Source: Gammaproteobacteria bacterium (GTDB lineage Bacteria > Pseudomonadota > Gammaproteobacteria > JABABF01). From it: a DNA stretch of 64,000 bases. The notes under the pieces were generated by a model. It did no database searches and had not been told where the DNA came from. It saw only the letters and a program-made list of their open reading frames with translations. The DNA is taken from contig OZ244031.1 of NCBI GenBank assembly GCA_965215045.1, positions 1,581,961 to 1,645,960 of the forward strand, written 5' to 3'. The translations under genes were made by a program, and so were the position numbers. Below, in pieces: positions 10,735 to 60,371 of the stretch. Each line of letters opens with the position of its first letter. Within the stretch, counting starts at the first letter, position 1.

Positions 10735-12543
10735 TTACCGCCGGGTCTGCTTCCACAGGATATCGATGGTTTTTGGATCGTAGGGCGGCAGCATCTTGAA
10801 CAGCTTGGCCGGGTTGGTAAAGCCCTGGCGCAGCATCGCGCGCTGGTGACTGAAGGTGCGAAAACCGTCGAAGCCGTGGTAATTGCCCATGCCGCTGTCC
10901 CCGATACCCCCGAAAGGCAGGTCGCTGCAGCTGGCGTGCATCATCACGTCGTTAATGGTCACCCCCCCGGAACAGGTGCTGTCCAGGATGCGCTCCTCCT
11001 CCTTGCGATCCTCGCCAAAATAATACAGTGCCAGGGGGCGTGGCCGGGCATTGATAAAGTCGATGACTTCATCGATATCATCGTAGTGGCGCAGTACCAT
11101 CACCGGTCCGAACAGCTCGTGTTGCATCACCAGTGCCTCATCGACGGGCTCCAGGACCAGGTGCAGGGGCAGCCTGTGGGAGCCGTCATCGGCGATCGCT
11201 TTCTGCAGTTCTTCGACGCGCGCGCCGCGTTTCCTGGCATCCTCGAGCCATTGGTTCAGGCGTTGTAAATGCTTTTCGTTGACGATCGAAGTGTAATCGG
11301 GATTGCCGGAGATCAGGGGATACAGGTTGCCGAAGACCAGCTTGGCGTAATGCAGGAACTCTTCCAGACTGTTGTTAAATTCCTCGGAGTTGAAAGTATC
11401 GCGCGGCAGGAACACGTAGTCCGGGGAGATGCAGGCCTGCCCGGAATTCATCATCTTGCCGCAGATGATTCTCTCCACCGCCTGCTGCAGGTTCGCCGAC
11501 TTGCCGATAATCACCGGCGATTTGCCTCCCAGTTCCAGGGTGACCGGGGTCAGGTTGGGTGCCGCTGCACTCAATACCTTGCGGCCGATTTCCGTGCCGC
11601 CGGTAAAGATCAGGTGATCAAATGGCAGGCTGCTGAAGATCGCCCCGACCTCGGGGCCGCCCGTGCAGACCGCGATCTCGGTGGGTTCAAAATAACGCGG
11701 AAACAATTCCGCCATCAGTTCCGCGGTGGCCGGGTTGACTTCGGAGGGTTTGATCATCGCCCGGTTGCCGGCACCCAGGATATTCGACAGGGGATTGAAA
11801 ATCATATTGACCGGGAAGTTCCACGGTGCCATGATGCCGACCACTCCCTTGGGTTCGTAGCGTACACAAGCCCGGGCGCCCAGGAGCAGCGACACCAAAC
11901 CCGGGTTGCGCCGTTCCGGCCGCACCCAGCGCCGCAGGTGTCTCTTGGTGTGCTTGAGCTGGGTCAGCGAATCGAGCACGTCGCTCATCAGGCTGAGTGG
12001 TCGCGCCCGGCCGCTGAAATCCGCATCCAGCGCCTCGATAATGAGTTTCCGATGATTGACCAGCAGGGTGATGCAACGGTCGATCCGGTCGAGCCTGACG
12101 CCCAGGTGCACCTTGCCCTCGGCGAGAAAAGCCCGACGCTGCTGTTTTAGGAGTTCCTCCATGAATGCGCGTGTCGCCGGGGGTCTGGAGGCGTCCCGGG
12201 GAGGTGCTCCCGGAACGGTCACCGCCGCTGCAGAAGCTTGCGCTTGCGGCTGCTCCCCAAGCGTTTCCATGCCCTGGAAGGCGGCCTGTTCTGCGGCCGG
12301 AGCCGGGGCAGCGGGTGCCGGGGCAGCGGGTGCCGGCGTCACTTGTATTTCCGGCGTCTCGGTTGCCACCGCCTTGGCCCGGGTGCGACTGCTGGCCGTG
12401 GATTTGGCGGCCGTTTTTTTGCGTGTGCCGGTGGTGGAGCGGCGCCGGGTGGCGGTCTTGGGTTTGTTCGCGGTTTTCTTGGCGGTGCTGGATGACTTGG
12501 CAGCGGGTTTCCGTTTTTTTGTGCCCGAGGCTTCAGCGTTCAT
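10735..12543 (-). CDS. Aldehyde dehydrogenase (coniferyl-aldehyde-DH-like ALDH family) with about 127-aa N-terminal Lys/Ala/Pro/Thr-rich histone-H1-like extension
   Basis: 602 aa. The residue 128-602 core has ALDH motifs (GVVGIMAPWNFP, ELGGKSPVII, cysteine region GQACISPDY). The N-terminus is low complexity (KKRKPAAKSSSTAKKTANKPKTATRRR...PAPAAPAPAAPAPAAE). Confidence 0.8.
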   Translation of the reverse strand: MNAEASGTKKRKPAAKSSSTAKKTANKPKTATRRRSTTGTRKKTAAKSTASSRTRAKAVATETPEIQVTPAPAAPAPAAPAPAAEQAAFQGMETLGEQPQAQASAAAVTVPGAPPRDASRPPATRAFMEELLKQQRRAFLAEGKVHLGVRLDRIDRCITLLVNHRKLIIEALDADFSGRARPLSLMSDVLDSLTQLKHTKRHLRRWVRPERRNPGLVSLLLGARACVRYEPKGVVGIMAPWNFPVNMIFNPLSNILGAGNRAMIKPSEVNPATAELMAELFPRYFEPTEIAVCTGGPEVGAIFSSLPFDHLIFTGGTEIGRKVLSAAAPNLTPVTLELGGKSPVIIGKSANLQQAVERIICGKMMNSGQACISPDYVFLPRDTFNSEEFNNSLEEFLHYAKLVFGNLYPLISGNPDYTSIVNEKHLQRLNQWLEDARKRGARVEELQKAIADDGSHRLPLHLVLEPVDEALVMQHELFGPVMVLRHYDDIDEVIDFINARPRPLALYYFGEDRKEEERILDSTCSGGVTINDVMMHASCSDLPFGGIGDSGMGNYHGFDGFRTFSHQRAMLRQGFTNPAKLFKMLPPYDPKTIDILWKQTRR

Positions 12544-56433: not shown

Positions 56434-56464
56434 GCGGTTTGCCGGGTGCCGGGGAGAAGACGGG

Positions 56465-57058
56465 ATGCGACACCGGAATAGCGGACGGCGGCTGAACCGC
56501 AACAGCGCGCACCGCAAGGCGATGTTTCGCAACATGACCGCCTCGCTGGTAGCACATGAGATGATCCGCACCACCGTGCCCAAGGCGAAATCGCTGCGCG
56601 GCTTCGCTGAACCCCTGATCACGCTGGCCAAGAAAGATACGGCGGCAAACCGCCGCCTGGCCTTTGCGCGACTGCGCAACCACGATGCGGTGGGCAAGAT
56701 ATTTTCCGTCTTGGGCAAACGCTACCGGGACCGCCCGGGAGGCTACCTGCGCATTCTCAAGGCCGGCTTTCGCCCGGGCGACCGGGCACCGATGGCCGTG
56801 GTGGAATTGATCGGGCGCCCGGAACATGCCCTGTCGCCGGTGATCGAAAGAGAGCAGAGGCTGGATGAATGGCGCCAGCGGGTAGAGACGGAAAAGATGG
56901 AACCCGCGGTGGAGAGAGCACCCGCCGCCGCTCCTGCCGCAGCCGCCGACCCTGCCGCAGCCTCCGACCAGCCGCCGCAAGAGGAGCGGGCACCGAAAAA
57001 AAGAGGCTGGTTCTCGCGCTTGTTGGGCGGTCGTCGGGACACGGACCCGGAAAAGTGA
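56465..57058 (+). CDS. rplQ: 50S ribosomal protein L17 with about 70-aa Ala/Pro/Glu-rich C-terminal extension
   Basis: Start at [25 protein letters not shown]17 core to about residue 125. Tail ...[40 protein letters not shown]. Confidence 0.9.
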
Positions 57059-57286
57059 GTGCCTCCCGCGCGGGTCTGTATGGCAGGGCGGCATTGCCGC
57101 CCGGTTCCAGGCCGCGGAGAAAAATTTTGGGCACGCAGAAATTTTTGTGCGTCTGCGCCGGTTGTTTGCCCTGCAAACCAAGTTTGCAAATTTCTGCTGG
57201 TTGTGATTGACTGTAGCCTGCAGATGCCGCAGTATTGCACGCATTATTATCGCCATCTCGATCTCACATACGGGGGAACCTAAATC

Positions 57287-57703
57287 ATGGCAGCAAAGAA
57301 AAAGACCGCTCGTAAACCAGCCAAAAGCAAGGCCCGGGCTCCGGCGCGCCGCAAAAAGGCTGCCGCCAAGCCAGTCTCGCCCGGTGCGCCGATCCGCAGC
57401 CGGCTGACCAAGTCTGGCATTGTCGGTGCCATTGCGGAGAGTCGCGACTTGAGACGCGCAGACGTGAGTGCCGTGCTCGAGGAGCTGGAGCTTTTGATCG
57501 GACGCAGCGTTCGTCGGGGCAGCGTGGGAGAATTCCAGCTGCCGGGCCTGATGAAGGTGGTTGCGGTGAAAGTCGCGGCGCGCAAGGCGCGTCCGGGGGT
57601 CAACCCGTTCACCGGCGAAAAAATCATGATCAAGGCGCGTCCGGCAAGCCGCAGTGCCCGCGTGCGGGTGCTGAAGAAGCTCAAAGAATACGCTTCCAGC
57701 TGA
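57287..57703 (+). CDS. HU-family nucleoid DNA-binding protein with N-terminal Lys/Ala-rich histone-H1-like tail
   Basis: N-terminus MAAKKKTARKPAKSKARAPARRKKAAAKP. C-terminal HU/IHF fold (GIVGAIAES...LEELELLIGRSVRRGSVGEFQLPGLMKVVAV...RPGVNPFTGEKIMIKARP). Confidence 0.75.
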   Translation: MAAKKKTARKPAKSKARAPARRKKAAAKPVSPGAPIRSRLTKSGIVGAIAESRDLRRADVSAVLEELELLIGRSVRRGSVGEFQLPGLMKVVAVKVAARKARPGVNPFTGEKIMIKARPASRSARVRVLKKLKEYASS

Positions 57704-57736
57704 ACGTTCCTGCGGGAAAGTCGCACCCGCAATTTT

Positions 57737-57790
57737 CCACCTGCGGGGGAACTTGGTTTCCCCTGCAGGTGCTTTTTTTTATCTGGCGCA
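57737..57790 (+). terminator. Rho-independent terminator after the HU-like gene
   Basis: CACCTGCGGGGGAA-CTTGGT-TTCCCCTGCAGGTG followed by TTTTTTTT. Confidence 0.75.
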
Positions 57791-57841
57791 GTGCGGCCAG
57801 GAGCTGCAACGGGCGTCAGTTTGCCCCGTATAATAAATAAG

Positions 57842-57875
57842 TGCCCCGCCCGGTTGCGGGGCATTTTTGCCTCGA
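57842..57875 (+). terminator. Second hairpin plus T-run (tandem terminator or 5'-UTR attenuator of the FmdB gene)
   Basis: TGCCCCGC-CCGGTT-GCGGGGCA followed by TTTTTG, 23 nt upstream of the ATG at 57898. Confidence 0.55.
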
Positions 57876-57897
57876 ACTAGCGCGCGGATGCCCTGCC

Positions 57898-58593
57898 ATG
57901 CCAATTTACGAATACAGCTGTTCACACTGCGCCCATGAGCTGGAAGCCCTGCAGGCGATGGGTGAACCGCTGCTGGTTAAATGTCCCGCCTGCGGTGAGA
58001 GGAAGCTGCAGAAAAAACTGAGTGCCGCCGCCTTTCATCTCAAGGGGCAGGGGTGGTACAAGACGGATTTCCAGGACCAGGGGAAAAAGAACGCCGCAGA
58101 AGGCGCGGATGCCGCCGGCACCGGGGATGCAAAAGAAGATGCCGCACGGTCTGCGGCCGCCCAAGCCGGTGAGCGCGGCGATGGTGCCTCTAGGGCTGGT
58201 GAGCGCGGCGATGGTGCCTCTAGGGCTGGTGAGCGCGGCGACGGCAACTCTCGGGCAGGCGAGCGCGGCGATGGTGCCTCTAGGGCCGGTGAGCGCGGCG
58301 ATGGTGCCTCCCGGGCCGGCGAGCGCGGCGATGGCAGCTCTCGGGCCGGTGAGCGCGGGGATGGTGCCTCTAGGGCCGGCGAGCGCGGCGATGGGGCCTC
58401 TAGGGCCGGTGAGCGCGGGGATGGCAGCTCTAGGGCCGGTGAGCGCGGCGATGGCAGCTCTCGGGCCGGTGAGCGCGGGGATGGTGCCTCTAGGGCCGGC
58501 GAGCGCGGCGATGGCACCGCGACTGTAAACAACAGCACCCGGGAGACGTCCTCCCGCTCCTCCGGAAGCGACTCCCAGGGCGCCTCCGCCTGA
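57898..58593 (+). CDS. FmdB-family zinc-ribbon protein with 12x decapeptide (AGERGDGASR) C-terminal repeat tail
   Basis: MPIYEYSCSHCAHELEALQAMGEPLLVKCPACGERKL is the FmdB CxxC...CxxC zinc ribbon. This is followed by 30-bp in-frame DNA repeats across 58165..58525. Confidence 0.75.
   Translation: MPIYEYSCSHCAHELEALQAMGEPLLVKCPACGERKLQKKLSAAAFHLKGQGWYKTDFQDQGKKNAAEGADAAGTGDAKEDAARSAAAQAGERGDGASRAGERGDGASRAGERGDGNSRAGERGDGASRAGERGDGASRAGERGDGSSRAGERGDGASRAGERGDGASRAGERGDGSSRAGERGDGSSRAGERGDGASRAGERGDGTATVNNSTRETSSRSSGSDSQGASA
58165..58525 (+). repeat. 30-bp near-perfect tandem repeat x12 (in-frame, inside the FmdB-family CDS)
   Basis: Unit GGTGAGCGCGGCGATGGTGCCTCTAGGGC(T/C), with minor variants (GGCAGCTCT, GGCAACTCT). 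Confidence 0.9.
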
Positions 58594-60371
58594 TGTTCAC
58601 GCGCAGTCGCTATTGCGGCGATTTGCGCCCCGAACATACAGGCGAGCGGGTGCGCCTGTGCGGTTGGGTCGACCGCCGGCGCGACCACGGGGGCGTGATC
58701 TTTCTCGACCTGCGCGACCGTTCCGGGGTCGTGCAACTGGTATTTGACCCCGATGCAGGGGAGCATTTTCACCGCGCCGAACAGGTGCGCGGTGAATTTG
58801 TTCTCTGGGCGGAGGGCACCGTGCGCCTCCGCAGTGAAGACACCCGCAACCCCAAGATGCCGACCGGCGAGGTGGAGGTGCTGGGTGCTTCCCTGGAAAT
58901 TCTCAACACCGCGGAAACCCCACCTTTTCAACTCGATGAATATATTGAAGCCGGCGAGGAACTGCGTCTTCGGCACCGCTACCTGGACCTGCGGCGTCCG
59001 GCCATGCAAGGCGGGCTGCTGCTGCGCGCGCGCTTGTTGTCCTTGTTGCGCAAGGCCTTGGAACGGGAGGGTTTCTGGGAGGTGGAGACGCCGGCGCTGA
59101 CCCGTGCCACGCCCGAAGGGGCGCGGGATTACCTGGTGCCCAGCCGCCTGGATCCCGGCACCTTCTACGCGCTGCCGCAGTCGCCGCAGCTGTTCAAACA
59201 ATTGCTGATGATCGGCGGCATCGACCGCTACTTCCAGGCGGCGCGCTGTTTTCGCGACGAGGATTTGCGCGCTGACCGGCAGCCGGAATTTACCCAGATC
59301 GATATCGAGGCCTCCTTTGTCGACGAGGAGGCGATCATGGAAATCACCGAGCGTATCTTGCGCGAGGCTTTCAGCGAGTTGCTGGGCGAGGAACTGCCGG
59401 CCTTCCCGCGCATGGAATACGCCGAGGCGATGCGCCGTTTCGGCAGTGACTGCCCGGATTTGCGCAATCCCCTGGAACTGGTCGAGATCTCAGAGCTGAT
59501 GCGCGAGGTGGAATTCAATATTTTTCGTCAAGCGGCGCGGGATGCAGATTCCCGCCTGGCGGTATTGCGCGTGCCGGGCGGCGGTGCCATGAGTCGTGCG
59601 GAGATCGACGCCTGCACCGAATTCGTGGCGGAATTCGGCGCCGGGGGTCTGGCCTGGATTCGCGTCAATGATCGTTCTGCCGGCATCCGGGGTCTGCAGT
59701 CACCTATTTTGAAATTCATTCCCGCGGAGCAGACGTTGGCGCTGCTTGCGTGTTGTGCCGCAGAGAGCGGCGACCTGCTCTTCTTCGGTGCGGGTCCGAT
59801 CGCCACGGTCAACCAGTCGCTGGGGGCCCTGCGCGACCGGCTGGGTGCCGAGCGCGGGCTTTTGCGCGCGGGCTGGGCACCGCTCTGGGTGCATTCCTTC
59901 CCGATGTTCGAGCGTGACGAGGCGGGCGGTTTTATGGCCCTGCACCATCCCTTCACCGCGCCGCAAACCGAAGATCCGCAAGCGGTGCAACAGGATCCCG
60001 GGGCGCAACTGTCGCGCGCTTATGACGTGGTTTTGAACGGCCACGAGATCGGCGGTGGTTCAGTGCGTATCCACAAACCGGAGATGCAGCGGACGGTGCT
60101 CCAGGTCCTGGGTTTTGAACGCGCCGAGGCGGAGCAGCGTTTTGGTTTCCTGTTGGAAGCCCTGCGTTACGGGGCACCGCCCCACGGTGGCATCGCCCTG
60201 GGACTGGACCGCCTGGCGATGTTGTTCAGCGGTGCCGGGTCGATTCGCGAGGTGATCGCTTTTCCCAAGACGCAGAGCGGCTCCTGTCCCCTGACGGGAG
60301 CGCCCCGGGAAGTGGAAGCCGAACGTCTGCGCGAATTGCGACTGCGCCTGCAAGCGCGCGGGGCACGTTGA
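58593..60371 (+). CDS. aspS: Aspartate--tRNA ligase
   Basis: 592 aa with an N-terminal OB fold and class-II motifs (FRDEDLRADRQPEFTQID, GGGSVRIH, GLDRL). Confidence 0.95.
   Translation: MFTRSRYCGDLRPEHTGERVRLCGWVDRRRDHGGVIFLDLRDRSGVVQLVFDPDAGEHFHRAEQVRGEFVLWAEGTVRLRSEDTRNPKMPTGEVEVLGASLEILNTAETPPFQLDEYIEAGEELRLRHRYLDLRRPAMQGGLLLRARLLSLLRKALEREGFWEVETPALTRATPEGARDYLVPSRLDPGTFYALPQSPQLFKQLLMIGGIDRYFQAARCFRDEDLRADRQPEFTQIDIEASFVDEEAIMEITERILREAFSELLGEELPAFPRMEYAEAMRRFGSDCPDLRNPLELVEISELMREVEFNIFRQAARDADSRLAVLRVPGGGAMSRAEIDACTEFVAEFGAGGLAWIRVNDRSAGIRGLQSPILKFIPAEQTLALLACCAAESGDLLFFGAGPIATVNQSLGALRDRLGAERGLLRAGWAPLWVHSFPMFERDEAGGFMALHHPFTAPQTEDPQAVQQDPGAQLSRAYDVVLNGHEIGGGSVRIHKPEMQRTVLQVLGFERAEAEQRFGFLLEALRYGAPPHGGIALGLDRLAMLFSGAGSIREVIAFPKTQSGSCPLTGAPREVEAERLRELRLRLQARGAR

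What the first reader, a model, noticed from the sequence alone, without database searches (positions are those of the whole stretch)
57287..57703. HU-fold protein with histone-H1-like KAAKK N-terminal tail immediately after the alpha operon
MAAKKKTARKPAKSKARAPARRKKAAAKPVSPGAP precedes a complete HU/IHF DNA-binding fold. H1-like tails on HU occur in only some lineages and increase DNA compaction. The same kind of tail is found fused to the ALDH at 12163..12543, hinting at a mobile basic tail module in this genome.
Basis: partly seen in the sequence, partly recalled or inferred. Interest (0 to 1): 0.55.

Follow-up and report, generated by a model that had tools for sequence, protein, structure and literature searches.

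The report
HU-like nucleoid protein with basic tail
This gene encodes an ordinary member of a large, already described group of proteobacterial HU-type DNA-packaging proteins that carry a disordered lysine/arginine-rich N-terminal tail. The proposed "mobile tail module" shared with an aldehyde dehydrogenase is not supported.

Summary
The ORF at 57287..57703 (+) is real and encodes 138 aa: a 38-aa K/R/A/P-rich tail plus a complete HU/IHF (DNABII) domain. Evidence for the domain is Pfam PF00216 at E 6e-13 and an AlphaFold core with pLDDT about 90. The top structural match is ASFV pA104R (TM 0.78, rmsd 2.9 A).

The protein is not a HupA/HupB/IHF orthologue. It belongs to a large proteobacterial "histone-like protein" (HLP) subfamily with at least 595 genome loci in Gamma- and Betaproteobacteria. 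The basic N-terminal tail is the rule there: 81-92% of sampled members have one, with a median length of 46 aa. This class (Bordetella BpH2, Ralstonia, Xylella) was described by 2005.

The tail must be translated, because no alternative start codon precedes codon 55. It is predicted to be disordered and appears to be under purifying selection (omega about 0.2, one pair only).

The "mobile tail module" idea fails. The HU and ALDH tail DNAs are no more alike than codon-shuffled controls (p about 0.09; protein p about 0.17). The HU tail is ancestral to its family, and the ALDH tail is absent from the nearest relative.

Placement after rplQ is lineage-specific. The widely conserved neighbour is fmdB-aspS.

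Verdict: a new member of a known kind, of low interest.

The parts
57287..57703 (+). HLP gene: a 138-aa HU-family (DNABII) nucleoid-associated protein with a basic N-terminal tail. The end coordinate includes the stop codon.
   Evidence: ORF. Pfam PF00216 at E 6e-13. 1714 homologues. AlphaFold model with mean pLDDT 79.9. Foldseek top hit pA104R 6lmh_A, E 9.6e-9, TM 0.78.
57287..57400 (+). Tail, aa 1-38: K/R/A/P-rich, net charge about +14, predicted disordered. It contains the family-conserved APA(R/K)(R/K)K motif (A18-P19-A20).
   Evidence: Composition. pLDDT below 50 for residues 1-28. No in-frame ATG/GTG/TTG between codons 1 and 55. A18/P19/A20 are invariant in alignment A2. omega about 0.22 against L086.
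57401..57700 (+). HU core, aa 39-138: helices 42-52 and 57-75, strands 82-85 and 89-96, beta-arm 102-105/112-115, strand 121-128, helix 130-137.
   Evidence: Secondary structure and pLDDT of 87-95. Structural matches to pA104R, HU and IHF. omega about 0.08.
57602..57616 (+). Arm-tip motif N106-P107-F108-T109-G110. P107 aligns with the DNA-intercalating proline of HU and with P74 of pA104R.
   Evidence: N106, P107, F108 and T109 are invariant in 98 family members, and G110 is conserved in at least 90%. Alignment to pA104R and HU.
57272..57277 (+). Shine-Dalgarno-like GGGGGA, with 9 nt before the ATG.
   Evidence: Sequence. Conserved in the relative L086.
57184..57212 (+). Conserved block in the rplQ-HLP spacer (TTGCAAATTTC...TTGTGATTGACT). 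It is a candidate promoter or regulatory element, with TTGACT at 57207..57212. This role is inferred only.
   Evidence: Conserved against L086 while the flanks diverge. No strict sigma-70 consensus was found in the window. L002 has a TTGATT-17-TATAAT site in its spacer.
57738..57780 (+). Intrinsic terminator just after the HLP stop: a 14-bp stem with 9 G-C pairs, followed by a T8 run.
56462..57058 (+). rplQ (L17), last gene of the alpha operon and upstream neighbour. It carries a ~70-aa low-complexity C-terminal extension.
   Evidence: Pfam Ribosomal_L17 covers residues 21-117 of 198. 18-nt tandem repeat at 56924..56969.
57898..60371 (+). fmdB-family zinc-ribbon gene (57898..58593) and aspS (58593..60371): the neighbours conserved across the HLP family. 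yebC-ruvCAB follow. A TATAAT lies at 57829..57834.
   Evidence: Synteny in 44 of 80 loci. The TATAAT is conserved in L086.
12163..12543 (-). N-terminal extension of the coniferyl-aldehyde-dehydrogenase-like ALDH: aa 1-60 basic, aa 61-127 Pro/Ala-rich. It is unrelated in origin to the HLP tail.
   Evidence: GGAG RBS lies 7 nt before the ATG at 12543, and none precedes M128. The extension is absent from most homologues. No similarity beyond composition.

Best explanation
The gene encodes a nucleoid-associated protein of the proteobacterial 'HLP' branch of the HU/IHF (DNABII) superfamily. This is the branch whose closest solved structure is ASFV pA104R and which, according to the literature, includes Bordetella BpH2.

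Inferred mechanism: the 100-aa core forms the intertwined HU-type dimer. Its two beta-arms wrap the minor groove, and P107 (in the invariant NPFTG tip) intercalates to kink the DNA. Basic residues on the arm and body (R102, K116, R118, R125, R127, K130) contact the backbone. The 38-aa disordered K/R/A/P tail adds low-affinity, multivalent, sequence-independent contacts that lengthen the binding site and allow bridging and compaction, as reported for the N-terminal tail of Deinococcus HU.

Shown here: fold, family membership, conservation of the arm and contact residues, predicted disorder and obligatory translation of the tail, and family-wide presence of the tail. Inferred only: dimerisation, DNA bending and compaction. 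The gene is closed by its own strong terminator and probably has its own promoter in the 228-nt spacer. Read-through from the alpha operon cannot be excluded.
For: - Domain and fold: Pfam PF00216 at E 6e-13. AlphaFold with a 98-sequence alignment gives core pLDDT 87-95 and tail pLDDT below 50. Foldseek hits are pA104R 6lmh_A (E 9.6e-9, TM 0.78, rmsd 2.9 A), followed by about 35 HU/IHF chains.
- Subfamily: the family profile hits pA104R at E 9e-17, against 2e-9 for TF1 and 3.5e-8 for HU-alpha. The alignment to pA104R lacks the gaps that TF1 and HU need.
- DNA-contact residues: six of the seven pA104R contact residues listed in PMC7712801 are basic here. These are R69/R102, K83/K116, K85/R118, K92/R125, R94/R127 and K97/K130. 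H72 corresponds to V105. The mapping comes from the alignment.
- Invariant motifs across 98 members: GEF, PGL, NPFT and P119-A120 of the KA(K/R)PA motif.
- Betaproteobacterial relatives: the Ralstonia/Cupriavidus HLPs align without gaps at 43% identity, E 2e-24.
- Tail prevalence: tails of at least 15 aa occur in 92% of 260 sampled members and in 69 of 85 rows of the genome-locus table, which includes the window itself.
- Tail translation: no alternative start codon before codon 55.
- Selection: tail omega 0.22, core omega 0.08.
- Literature: bacterial HLPs with an A/K/P-rich N-terminal extension and an HU-like domain, PMC1173104. Basic extensions on proteobacterial, actinobacterial and Deinococcus HU contribute to DNA binding, PMC5499826. 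DrHU uses two binding modes, the beta-hairpin plus the N-tail, bioRxiv 10.64898/2026.08.18.745388.
Against: - No biochemical data exist for this protein or for any close relative.
- The R61-equivalent arm residue of HU is V/I in this family, so DNA-binding details may differ.
- NCBIfam HupA, HupB and IHF-alpha equivalog scores are far below their cut-offs, so functions cannot simply be transferred from E. coli HU.
- The structure was predicted as a monomer; the dimer was not modelled.
- The dN/dS estimate rests on one sequence pair, with dS close to saturation.
- Conserved adjacency to fmdB-aspS-yebC-ruvCAB leaves room for a more specific role.
Confidence: 0.8

Rival explanations
1. Mobile basic tail module: one DNA segment encoding an H1-like tail has been copied or fused onto unrelated genes (HU and ALDH) in this genome.
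For: Both proteins start with K/R/A-rich, acid-free stretches. A BLASTP-short run without composition correction gives apparent E values of 5e-6.
Against: DNA Smith-Waterman score is 28 against a codon-shuffle null of 22.7 +/- 3.4, reached by 9.1% of shuffles. The best DNA match falls in the ALDH Pro/Ala linker, not in its basic part. The protein score is 47 against 41.7 +/- 5.3, reached by 17% of shuffles. The best blastn-short hit is 14 nt. Compositions differ: the ALDH tail is 18% T, 13% S and 3% P, while the HU tail is 3% T and 13% P. The HU tail is ancestral to the whole family, with a conserved APA(K/R)K motif. The ALDH tail is absent from the nearest relative genome, and other ALDH extensions are unrelated in sequence.
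Confidence: 0.03
2. The tail is an annotation artefact: translation starts downstream and the real protein is a tail-less HU of about 100 aa.
For: Some family members are called as 99-119 aa without a tail.
Against: There is no in-frame ATG, GTG or TTG between codon 1 and codon 55, which lies inside helix 2. A later start would therefore delete helix 1. A Shine-Dalgarno-like site sits 9 nt upstream of the ATG at 57287 and is conserved in L086. The tail is conserved in close relatives with omega about 0.2.
Confidence: 0.02
3. The protein is a locus-specific architectural or regulatory factor (IHF-like, or a junction-binding accessory) tied to its conserved neighbours fmdB-aspS-yebC-ruvCAB, rather than a general nucleoid protein.
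For: The HLP gene lies next to fmdB-aspS in 44 of 80 loci from several gammaproteobacterial families: co-directional in 27 and divergent in 17. The window and relatives continue with yebC-ruvC-ruvA-ruvB. From general knowledge rather than a test here, HU proteins prefer four-way junctions. BpH2 is reported to affect virulence gene expression (PMC1173104).
Against: The 80 loci are phylogenetically clustered (mostly Cellvibrionales-type taxa), so the adjacency may be inherited gene order. The other 36 of 80 loci lack it, as do the plasmid copies. Each gene has its own terminator and promoter signals. The IHF-alpha equivalog score is 24.9 against a cut-off of 111.
Confidence: 0.12
4. The protein is the sole or principal HU of a reduced genome of about 2 Mb, appended to the alpha operon so that it is made in step with ribosomes and RNA polymerase.
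For: The gene directly follows rplQ in the window and in four loci from close relatives. In the relatives the spacers are short, about 20-76 nt. No strong terminator lies between rplQ and the gene in the window. The source contig is only 2.08 Mb.
Against: Only 64 kb of the genome could be inspected, and it holds no other HU gene; the rest is unknown. The window spacer is 228 nt and contains a conserved block. L002 has a promoter-like site in its spacer.
Confidence: 0.2

Closest known systems
Proteobacterial histone-like proteins (HLPs) of the BpH2 type (Bordetella pertussis BpH2; Ralstonia, Xylella and Cupriavidus 'HU family DNA-binding protein')
   Same: Same architecture: an Ala/Lys/Pro-rich N-terminal extension followed by an HU-like domain that retains the arm proline (PMC1173104). 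Ralstonia and Cupriavidus members align without gaps to the window core at 43% identity, E 2e-24, and share the GEFxLPGL, G.NPFTG, A(K/R)PA and VR.LKK.K motifs as well as the APAKK tail motif.
   Different: The window tail is shorter (38 aa against a family median of 46) and richer in Arg: K/(K+R) is 0.64 against a median of 0.92. It belongs to the gammaproteobacterial branch. BpH2 itself could not be compared because its sequence and paper were not available.
African swine fever virus pA104R (PDB 6LMH/6LMJ)
   Same: Closest solved structure by sequence (profile E 9e-17) and by fold (TM 0.78, rmsd 2.9 A). It shares the extra residues that TF1 and HU lack, the arm-tip NP.TGE motif, and six of seven DNA-contact basic residues.
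   Different: pA104R is 104 aa with no basic tail, is viral, and works in genome packaging in a eukaryotic virus. Identity is only about 28-35%.
Deinococcus radiodurans HU (DrHU)
   Same: An HU core plus a lysine-rich N-terminal tail. The documented two-mode binding (beta-hairpin plus multivalent tail, giving DNA bridging and alignment) is the best mechanistic analogue.
   Different: A different HU lineage, so the tails probably arose independently. No sequence relationship between the tails was tested.
Actinobacterial HupB/MDP1/Hlp (PAKKA-repeat HU)
   Same: An HU domain fused to a basic, H1-like low-complexity region that enhances DNA binding.
   Different: The tail is C-terminal and much longer. 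The core is of canonical HU type (4PT4 ranks below pA104R).
Dinoflagellate nuclear HLPs (HCc, HLP-I/II)
   Same: Reported to group with the proteobacterial HLPs and to carry a basic N-terminal extension (PMC1173104; PMC6723414).
   Different: They are eukaryotic nuclear proteins that lack the arm proline. They were not compared here.
E. coli HU-alpha/HU-beta and IHF
   Same: Same DNABII fold and the same arm-tip proline.
   Different: NCBIfam equivalog scores are 19-25 bits against cut-offs of 111-162. There is no tail, GFG is replaced by PGL, and there are two insertions.

Membership tests
HU/IHF (DNABII) superfamily, Pfam PF00216 | Significant match to the family profile above the curated threshold | tested here: met
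   49.3 bits against a cut-off of 22.4, E 6e-13, residues 40-134.
HU/IHF (DNABII) superfamily, Pfam PF00216 | Fold of two helices, a beta-sheet with a protruding beta-arm, and a C-terminal helix | tested here: met
   AlphaFold core pLDDT 87-95 with H42-52, H57-75, four to five strands and H130-137. Foldseek TM 0.67-0.82 to about 35 HU/IHF chains.
HU/IHF (DNABII) superfamily, Pfam PF00216 | Conserved intercalating proline at the arm tip | tested here: met
   P107 lies in the invariant NPFT motif and aligns with the HU and pA104R proline.
HU/IHF (DNABII) superfamily, Pfam PF00216 | Obligate dimer that binds and bends DNA | not testable with these tools
   Only a monomer model was possible; there is no biochemistry.
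Canonical HU (HupA/HupB orthologues) | Score above the NCBIfam equivalog cut-off (NF008023 / NF007945) | tested here: not met
   22.8 bits against 162, and 19.2 against 157.
IHF alpha | Score above the NCBIfam equivalog cut-off (NF001401) | tested here: not met
   24.9 bits against 111.
Proteobacterial HLP (BpH2-type) subfamily | Ala/Lys/Pro-rich N-terminal extension preceding the HU-like domain | tested here: met
   The 38-aa tail is 24% K, 13% R, 29% A and 13% P. The feature is described in PMC1173104.
Proteobacterial HLP (BpH2-type) subfamily | Closer homology to HLPs of the taxa used to define the group (Ralstonia, Xylella/Xanthomonas, Bordetella) than to canonical HU | tested here: met
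   Ralstonia P0423: 43% identity, ungapped, E 2e-24. Xanthomonas and Ralstonia plasmid copies: 44%. Canonical HU-alpha: only E 2.5e-5 to 4e-3.
Proteobacterial HLP (BpH2-type) subfamily | Direct similarity to BpH2 itself | not testable with these tools
   Goyard 1996 is not held. No Bordetella sequence appeared in the 120 listed hits.
pA104R-like HU | The pA104R-type extra residues and basic DNA-contact residues | tested here: met
   The alignment to pA104R has only one 2-residue gap, whereas TF1 and HU need gaps of 3+3 or 5 residues. Six of seven contact residues are conserved as basic.
Actinobacterial HupB/MDP1 type | C-terminal PAKKA-type repeat tail | tested here: not met
   The protein ends 4 residues after helix 3, and the tail is N-terminal.

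The most novel reading that the evidence does not exclude
This small-genome, GC-rich gammaproteobacterial lineage may have a general tendency to grow charged low-complexity extensions on unrelated proteins. Examples are the Arg-shifted HLP tail, a 127-aa basic plus Pro/Ala N-extension on an aldehyde dehydrogenase, long C-terminal extensions on L17 and L15, and an 11.7-copy acidic repeat on FmdB. In that reading the HLP, placed behind the alpha operon, would be the main chromatin protein. The basic tail would tether a metabolic enzyme (the ALDH) to the nucleoid or to a polyanion-rich condensate.
Probability: 0.07. Interest if true: 0.5.

Novelty: new member of a known kind. Interest (0 to 1): 0.15.

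Why it matters
It matters little beyond correct annotation. The gene should be named an HLP-type (pA104R/BpH2-like) HU-family nucleoid protein, not HupA/B or IHF. The apparent sharing of a tail with the ALDH is convergent low complexity. Two modest points may be useful. First, the subfamily is very large, almost always tailed and biochemically uncharacterised, although it is the closest bacterial relative with a solved-structure counterpart in ASFV pA104R and is reported as the source of dinoflagellate HLPs. A tractable bacterial member would therefore be a good model for tail-plus-HU chromatin. Second, the family shows an unexplained conserved adjacency to fmdB-aspS(-yebC-ruvCAB).

Tried and rejected
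It appears to be an uncultured gammaproteobacterium; the closest named relatives of the HLP and the ALDH are Halieaceae/Cellvibrionales-type taxa at about 55-60% identity.
- The first AlphaFold run, with 21 sequences, gave a poor model (pLDDT 64.7) and meaningless superpositions (rmsd about 15 A). It was replaced by the 98-sequence run.
- Rfam scan of 56900..58000 found nothing near gathering scores.
- The strict sigma-70 scan found no promoter upstream of the gene in the window.
- Phage collection: no homologue.
- I tested whether the Arg-rich tail simply reflects high GC. This was rejected: K/(K+R) against locus GC gives rho -0.19, p 0.13 over 69 loci, and Halieaceae at 63-65% GC keep Lys-rich tails.
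- The third protein search, with a Ralstonia HLP, aimed to reach Bordetella BpH2 by name. It returned only Ralstonia and Cupriavidus in the listed hits.
- Goyard 1996 and Wong 2003 are not held in the library.
- A scan for other basic tails in the window turned up mostly out-of-frame Arg-rich artefacts of GC-rich DNA, plus the ordinary basic N-terminus of FtsX.

Full report
**Observation.**
- The ORF at 57287..57703 (+) exists as described and encodes 138 aa beginning MAAKKKTARKPAKSKARAPARRKKAAAKPVSPGAP.
- A stop codon lies two codons upstream of the ATG. A GGGGGA ribosome-binding site sits at 57272..57277. There is no other in-frame ATG, GTG or TTG until codon 55.
- The first helix of the fold starts at residue 42, so a complete domain can only be made if the tail is translated.
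- The tail (aa 1-38) is 24% K, 13% R, 29% A and 13% P, with no acidic residue.
- The gene follows rpsD, rpoA and rplQ, whose identities were confirmed by Pfam. A 228-nt spacer separates it from rplQ.
- The ALDH ORF 10735..12543 (-) does have a 127-aa N-terminal extension.

**What the protein is.**
- Residues 40-134 match Pfam Bac_DNA_binding (E 6e-13, 49.3 bits against a cut-off of 22.4).
- It is not an orthologue of HupA, HupB or IHF-alpha. The NCBIfam equivalog scores are 19-25 bits against cut-offs of 111-162.
- Against solved structures, the best sequence match is the African swine fever virus histone-like protein pA104R (E 1e-8), ahead of every bacterial HU.
- With a family profile the gap widens: pA104R 9e-17, phage TF1 2e-9, E. 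coli HU-alpha 3.5e-8. The alignment to pA104R lacks the 3+3- or 5-residue gaps that TF1 and HU require.
- A first AlphaFold model from 21 sequences was poor. A second, from 98 sequences, gave mean pLDDT 79.9, with the core at 87-95 and residues 1-28 below 50.
- Foldseek on the second model returned pA104R first (E 9.6e-9, TM 0.78, rmsd 2.9 A over 99 columns), followed by about 35 HU and IHF chains.
- The arm-tip residues N106, P107, F108 and T109 are invariant in 98 relatives, and G110 is conserved in at least 90%. P107 aligns with the intercalating proline.
- Using the alignment, six of the seven pA104R DNA-contact residues listed in PMC7712801 are basic here: R102, K116, R118, R125, R127 and K130. 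H72 corresponds to V105.

**The family.**
- The word-indexed search found 1714 relatives, most 130-180 aa long. Where named, they are called 'HU family DNA-binding protein', 'nucleoid DNA-binding protein' or, in UniRef, 'Viral histone-like protein'.
- The exhaustive profile search of 1.84 billion representatives found 5280 proteins at E<=1e-3 and 1923 at E<=1e-10.
- A scan of one genome per species found at least 595 loci. Most are in Gammaproteobacteria: Halieaceae, Spongiibacteraceae, Cellvibrionaceae, Microbulbifer, Kangiellaceae, Zooshikella, Coxiella-like and Thiohalomonadaceae MAGs.
- Plasmid copies occur in Spartinivicinus, Piscirickettsia, Xanthomonas and Ralstonia. There are none in phages.
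- A search seeded with the Ralstonia copy found 3737 further proteins of 130-160 aa in Ralstonia and Cupriavidus, including chromosomal copies.
- These betaproteobacterial proteins align without gaps to the window core (43% identity, E 2e-24). They share the signature motifs and even an APAKK motif in the tail.

**The tail is a family character.**
- In 260 sampled members the median N-terminal extension is 46 aa, and 92% have at least 15 aa. The pooled composition is 28% K, 26% A, 8% P and 5% R.
- That sample is biased upward, because the search profile included tail columns.
- In the genome loci, which were found through core motifs, the figure is 69 of 85 rows (a count that includes the window itself).
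- The window tail is shorter than the median and richer in Arg: K/(K+R) is 0.64 against a median of 0.92. Its closest relatives L001-L004 share this trait. It is not explained by GC content (rho -0.19, p 0.13).
- Against the closest relative with DNA available (L086, 80% protein identity), Nei-Gojobori omega is 0.22 for the tail and 0.08 for the core. This is a single pair with dS near saturation, so it is only indicative.

**Prior knowledge.**
- Hackett et al. 2005 (PMC1173104) already defined 'bacterial HLPs', including Bordetella BpH2. Their taxon set for the HLP analysis also included Ralstonia and Xylella.
- They described them as HU-like proteins with an Ala/Lys/Pro-rich N-terminal extension reminiscent of the histone H1 C-terminus. 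The proteins retain the arm proline and group with dinoflagellate HLPs.
- Burroughs et al. 2017 (PMC5499826) note basic low-complexity extensions at either terminus of HU in actinobacteria, proteobacteria and Deinococcus, and that these contribute to DNA binding.
- A 2026 preprint on Deinococcus HU reports two synergistic modes: high-affinity beta-hairpin binding, plus low-affinity multivalent binding by the N-terminal tail that aligns and bridges DNA.
- The similarity of pA104R to proteobacterial HU-family proteins is also published.
- The finding is therefore a new member of a known kind.

**Mechanism.** Shown here: the fold, the arm proline, conservation of the contact residues, and a disordered, obligatorily translated, conserved basic tail. 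Inferred by homology and analogy: an HU-type dimer that kinks DNA through its arms, while the two tails per dimer add electrostatic, multivalent contacts that extend the site and permit bridging and compaction.

**Genomic context.**
- A strong intrinsic terminator (14-bp stem, T8) follows the stop codon at 57738..57780.
- A TATAAT at 57829..57834 upstream of fmdB is conserved in L086.
- In the rplQ-HLP spacer, a block at 57184..57212 (TTGCAAATTTC...TTGTGATTGACT) is conserved against L086 while the flanks diverge. No strict sigma-70 match was found in the window. L002 has a TTGATT-17-TATAAT site in its spacer.
- The position after rplQ is seen only in the window and in L001-L004.
- Across 80 other loci the recurrent neighbour is fmdB-aspS, present in 44 of 80: co-directional in 27 and divergent in 17. 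In the window and its relatives, yebC-ruvC-ruvA-ruvB follow.
- This adjacency may be inherited gene order among related taxa. A functional link is kept as a low-confidence rival.

**The 'mobile tail module'.**
- blastn-short finds at most a 14-nt match between the two tail-coding segments.
- A Smith-Waterman comparison scores 28, against 22.7 +/- 3.4 for codon-shuffled HU tails; 9.1% of shuffles reach it. The best alignment falls in the ALDH Pro/Ala linker.
- At protein level the score is 47 against 41.7 +/- 5.3, reached by 17% of shuffles.
- The small E values from uncorrected BLASTP-short are composition artefacts.
- The ALDH extension looks translated. GGAG lies 7 nt before the ATG at 12543, there is no RBS before M128, and only 59 nt separate it from the upstream gene.
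- Nearly all of the listed ALDH homologues are about 482 aa. The orthologue in the nearest relative genome (P0125, 487 aa) lacks the extension. The few other extended homologues (P0126, P0127, P0137) carry unrelated low-complexity sequences.
- The two tails therefore arose independently: one is ancient and vertically inherited, the other recent and local.

**Verdict.** The feature is an ordinary member of a described but biochemically neglected HU subfamily, and interest is low.

Noticed in passing
window 57898..58593 (repeat array 58165..58514): The FmdB-family zinc-ribbon protein downstream of the HLP carries 11.7 tandem copies of a 30-nt unit (85% matches). They encode an SRAGERGDGA repeat as a long acidic/Gly-rich C-terminal tail. 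Relatives have a 117-122-aa FmdB (L001, L086), which is too short to hold such an array.
   Followed up: partly
window 56462..57058 (repeat 56924..56969); L001 5231..5980; L002 648..1415: Ribosomal protein L17 is 198 aa, with the L17 domain ending at residue 117 and a ~70-80-aa Ala/Pro/acidic low-complexity C-terminal extension. Relatives have L17 of 195-249 aa and L15 of 170-255 aa. The lineage seems prone to low-complexity extensions on ribosomal proteins.
   Followed up: partly
window 10735..12543 (-), extension 12163..12543: A coniferyl-aldehyde-dehydrogenase-like ALDH has a 127-aa N-terminal extension, basic over aa 1-60 and Pro/Ala-rich over aa 61-127. It has a good RBS. It is absent from the nearest relative, while a few distant homologues (P0126, P0127, P0137) have unrelated low-complexity extensions. 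The function of a basic tail on a metabolic enzyme is unexplained.
   Followed up: partly
L005-L084 (genome loci), e.g. L006 4001..6522, L036 1578..4309: The HLP gene is adjacent to fmdB-aspS in 44 of 80 loci across several gammaproteobacterial families, in either co-directional (27) or divergent (17) orientation. This linkage did not come up in the papers I read.
   Followed up: partly
window 57287..57400; L001-L004: The window clade has Arg-shifted HLP tails (K/(K+R) about 0.4-0.64), whereas other equally GC-rich taxa keep Lys-rich tails. There is no correlation with GC across 69 loci.
   Followed up: yes
window 57842..57863: A second G+C-rich hairpin (8 pairs) lies just upstream of the fmdB start, between the conserved TATAAT and the ATG. 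It has a T-run on the + strand (GGGGCATTTTTG) and an A/T-rich tail on the - strand. It may be an attenuator or a bidirectional terminator.
   Followed up: no
L002 10325..11835: In one relative, an N6/N4 methyltransferase plus an MvaI/BcnI-type restriction enzyme pair is inserted between ruvA and ruvB.
   Followed up: no
window 57184..57212: A sequence block in the rplQ-HLP spacer (TTGCAAATTTC-N6-TTGTGATTGACT) is conserved in L086 while the surrounding spacer diverges and carries indels. It is a candidate promoter or operator.
   Followed up: partly
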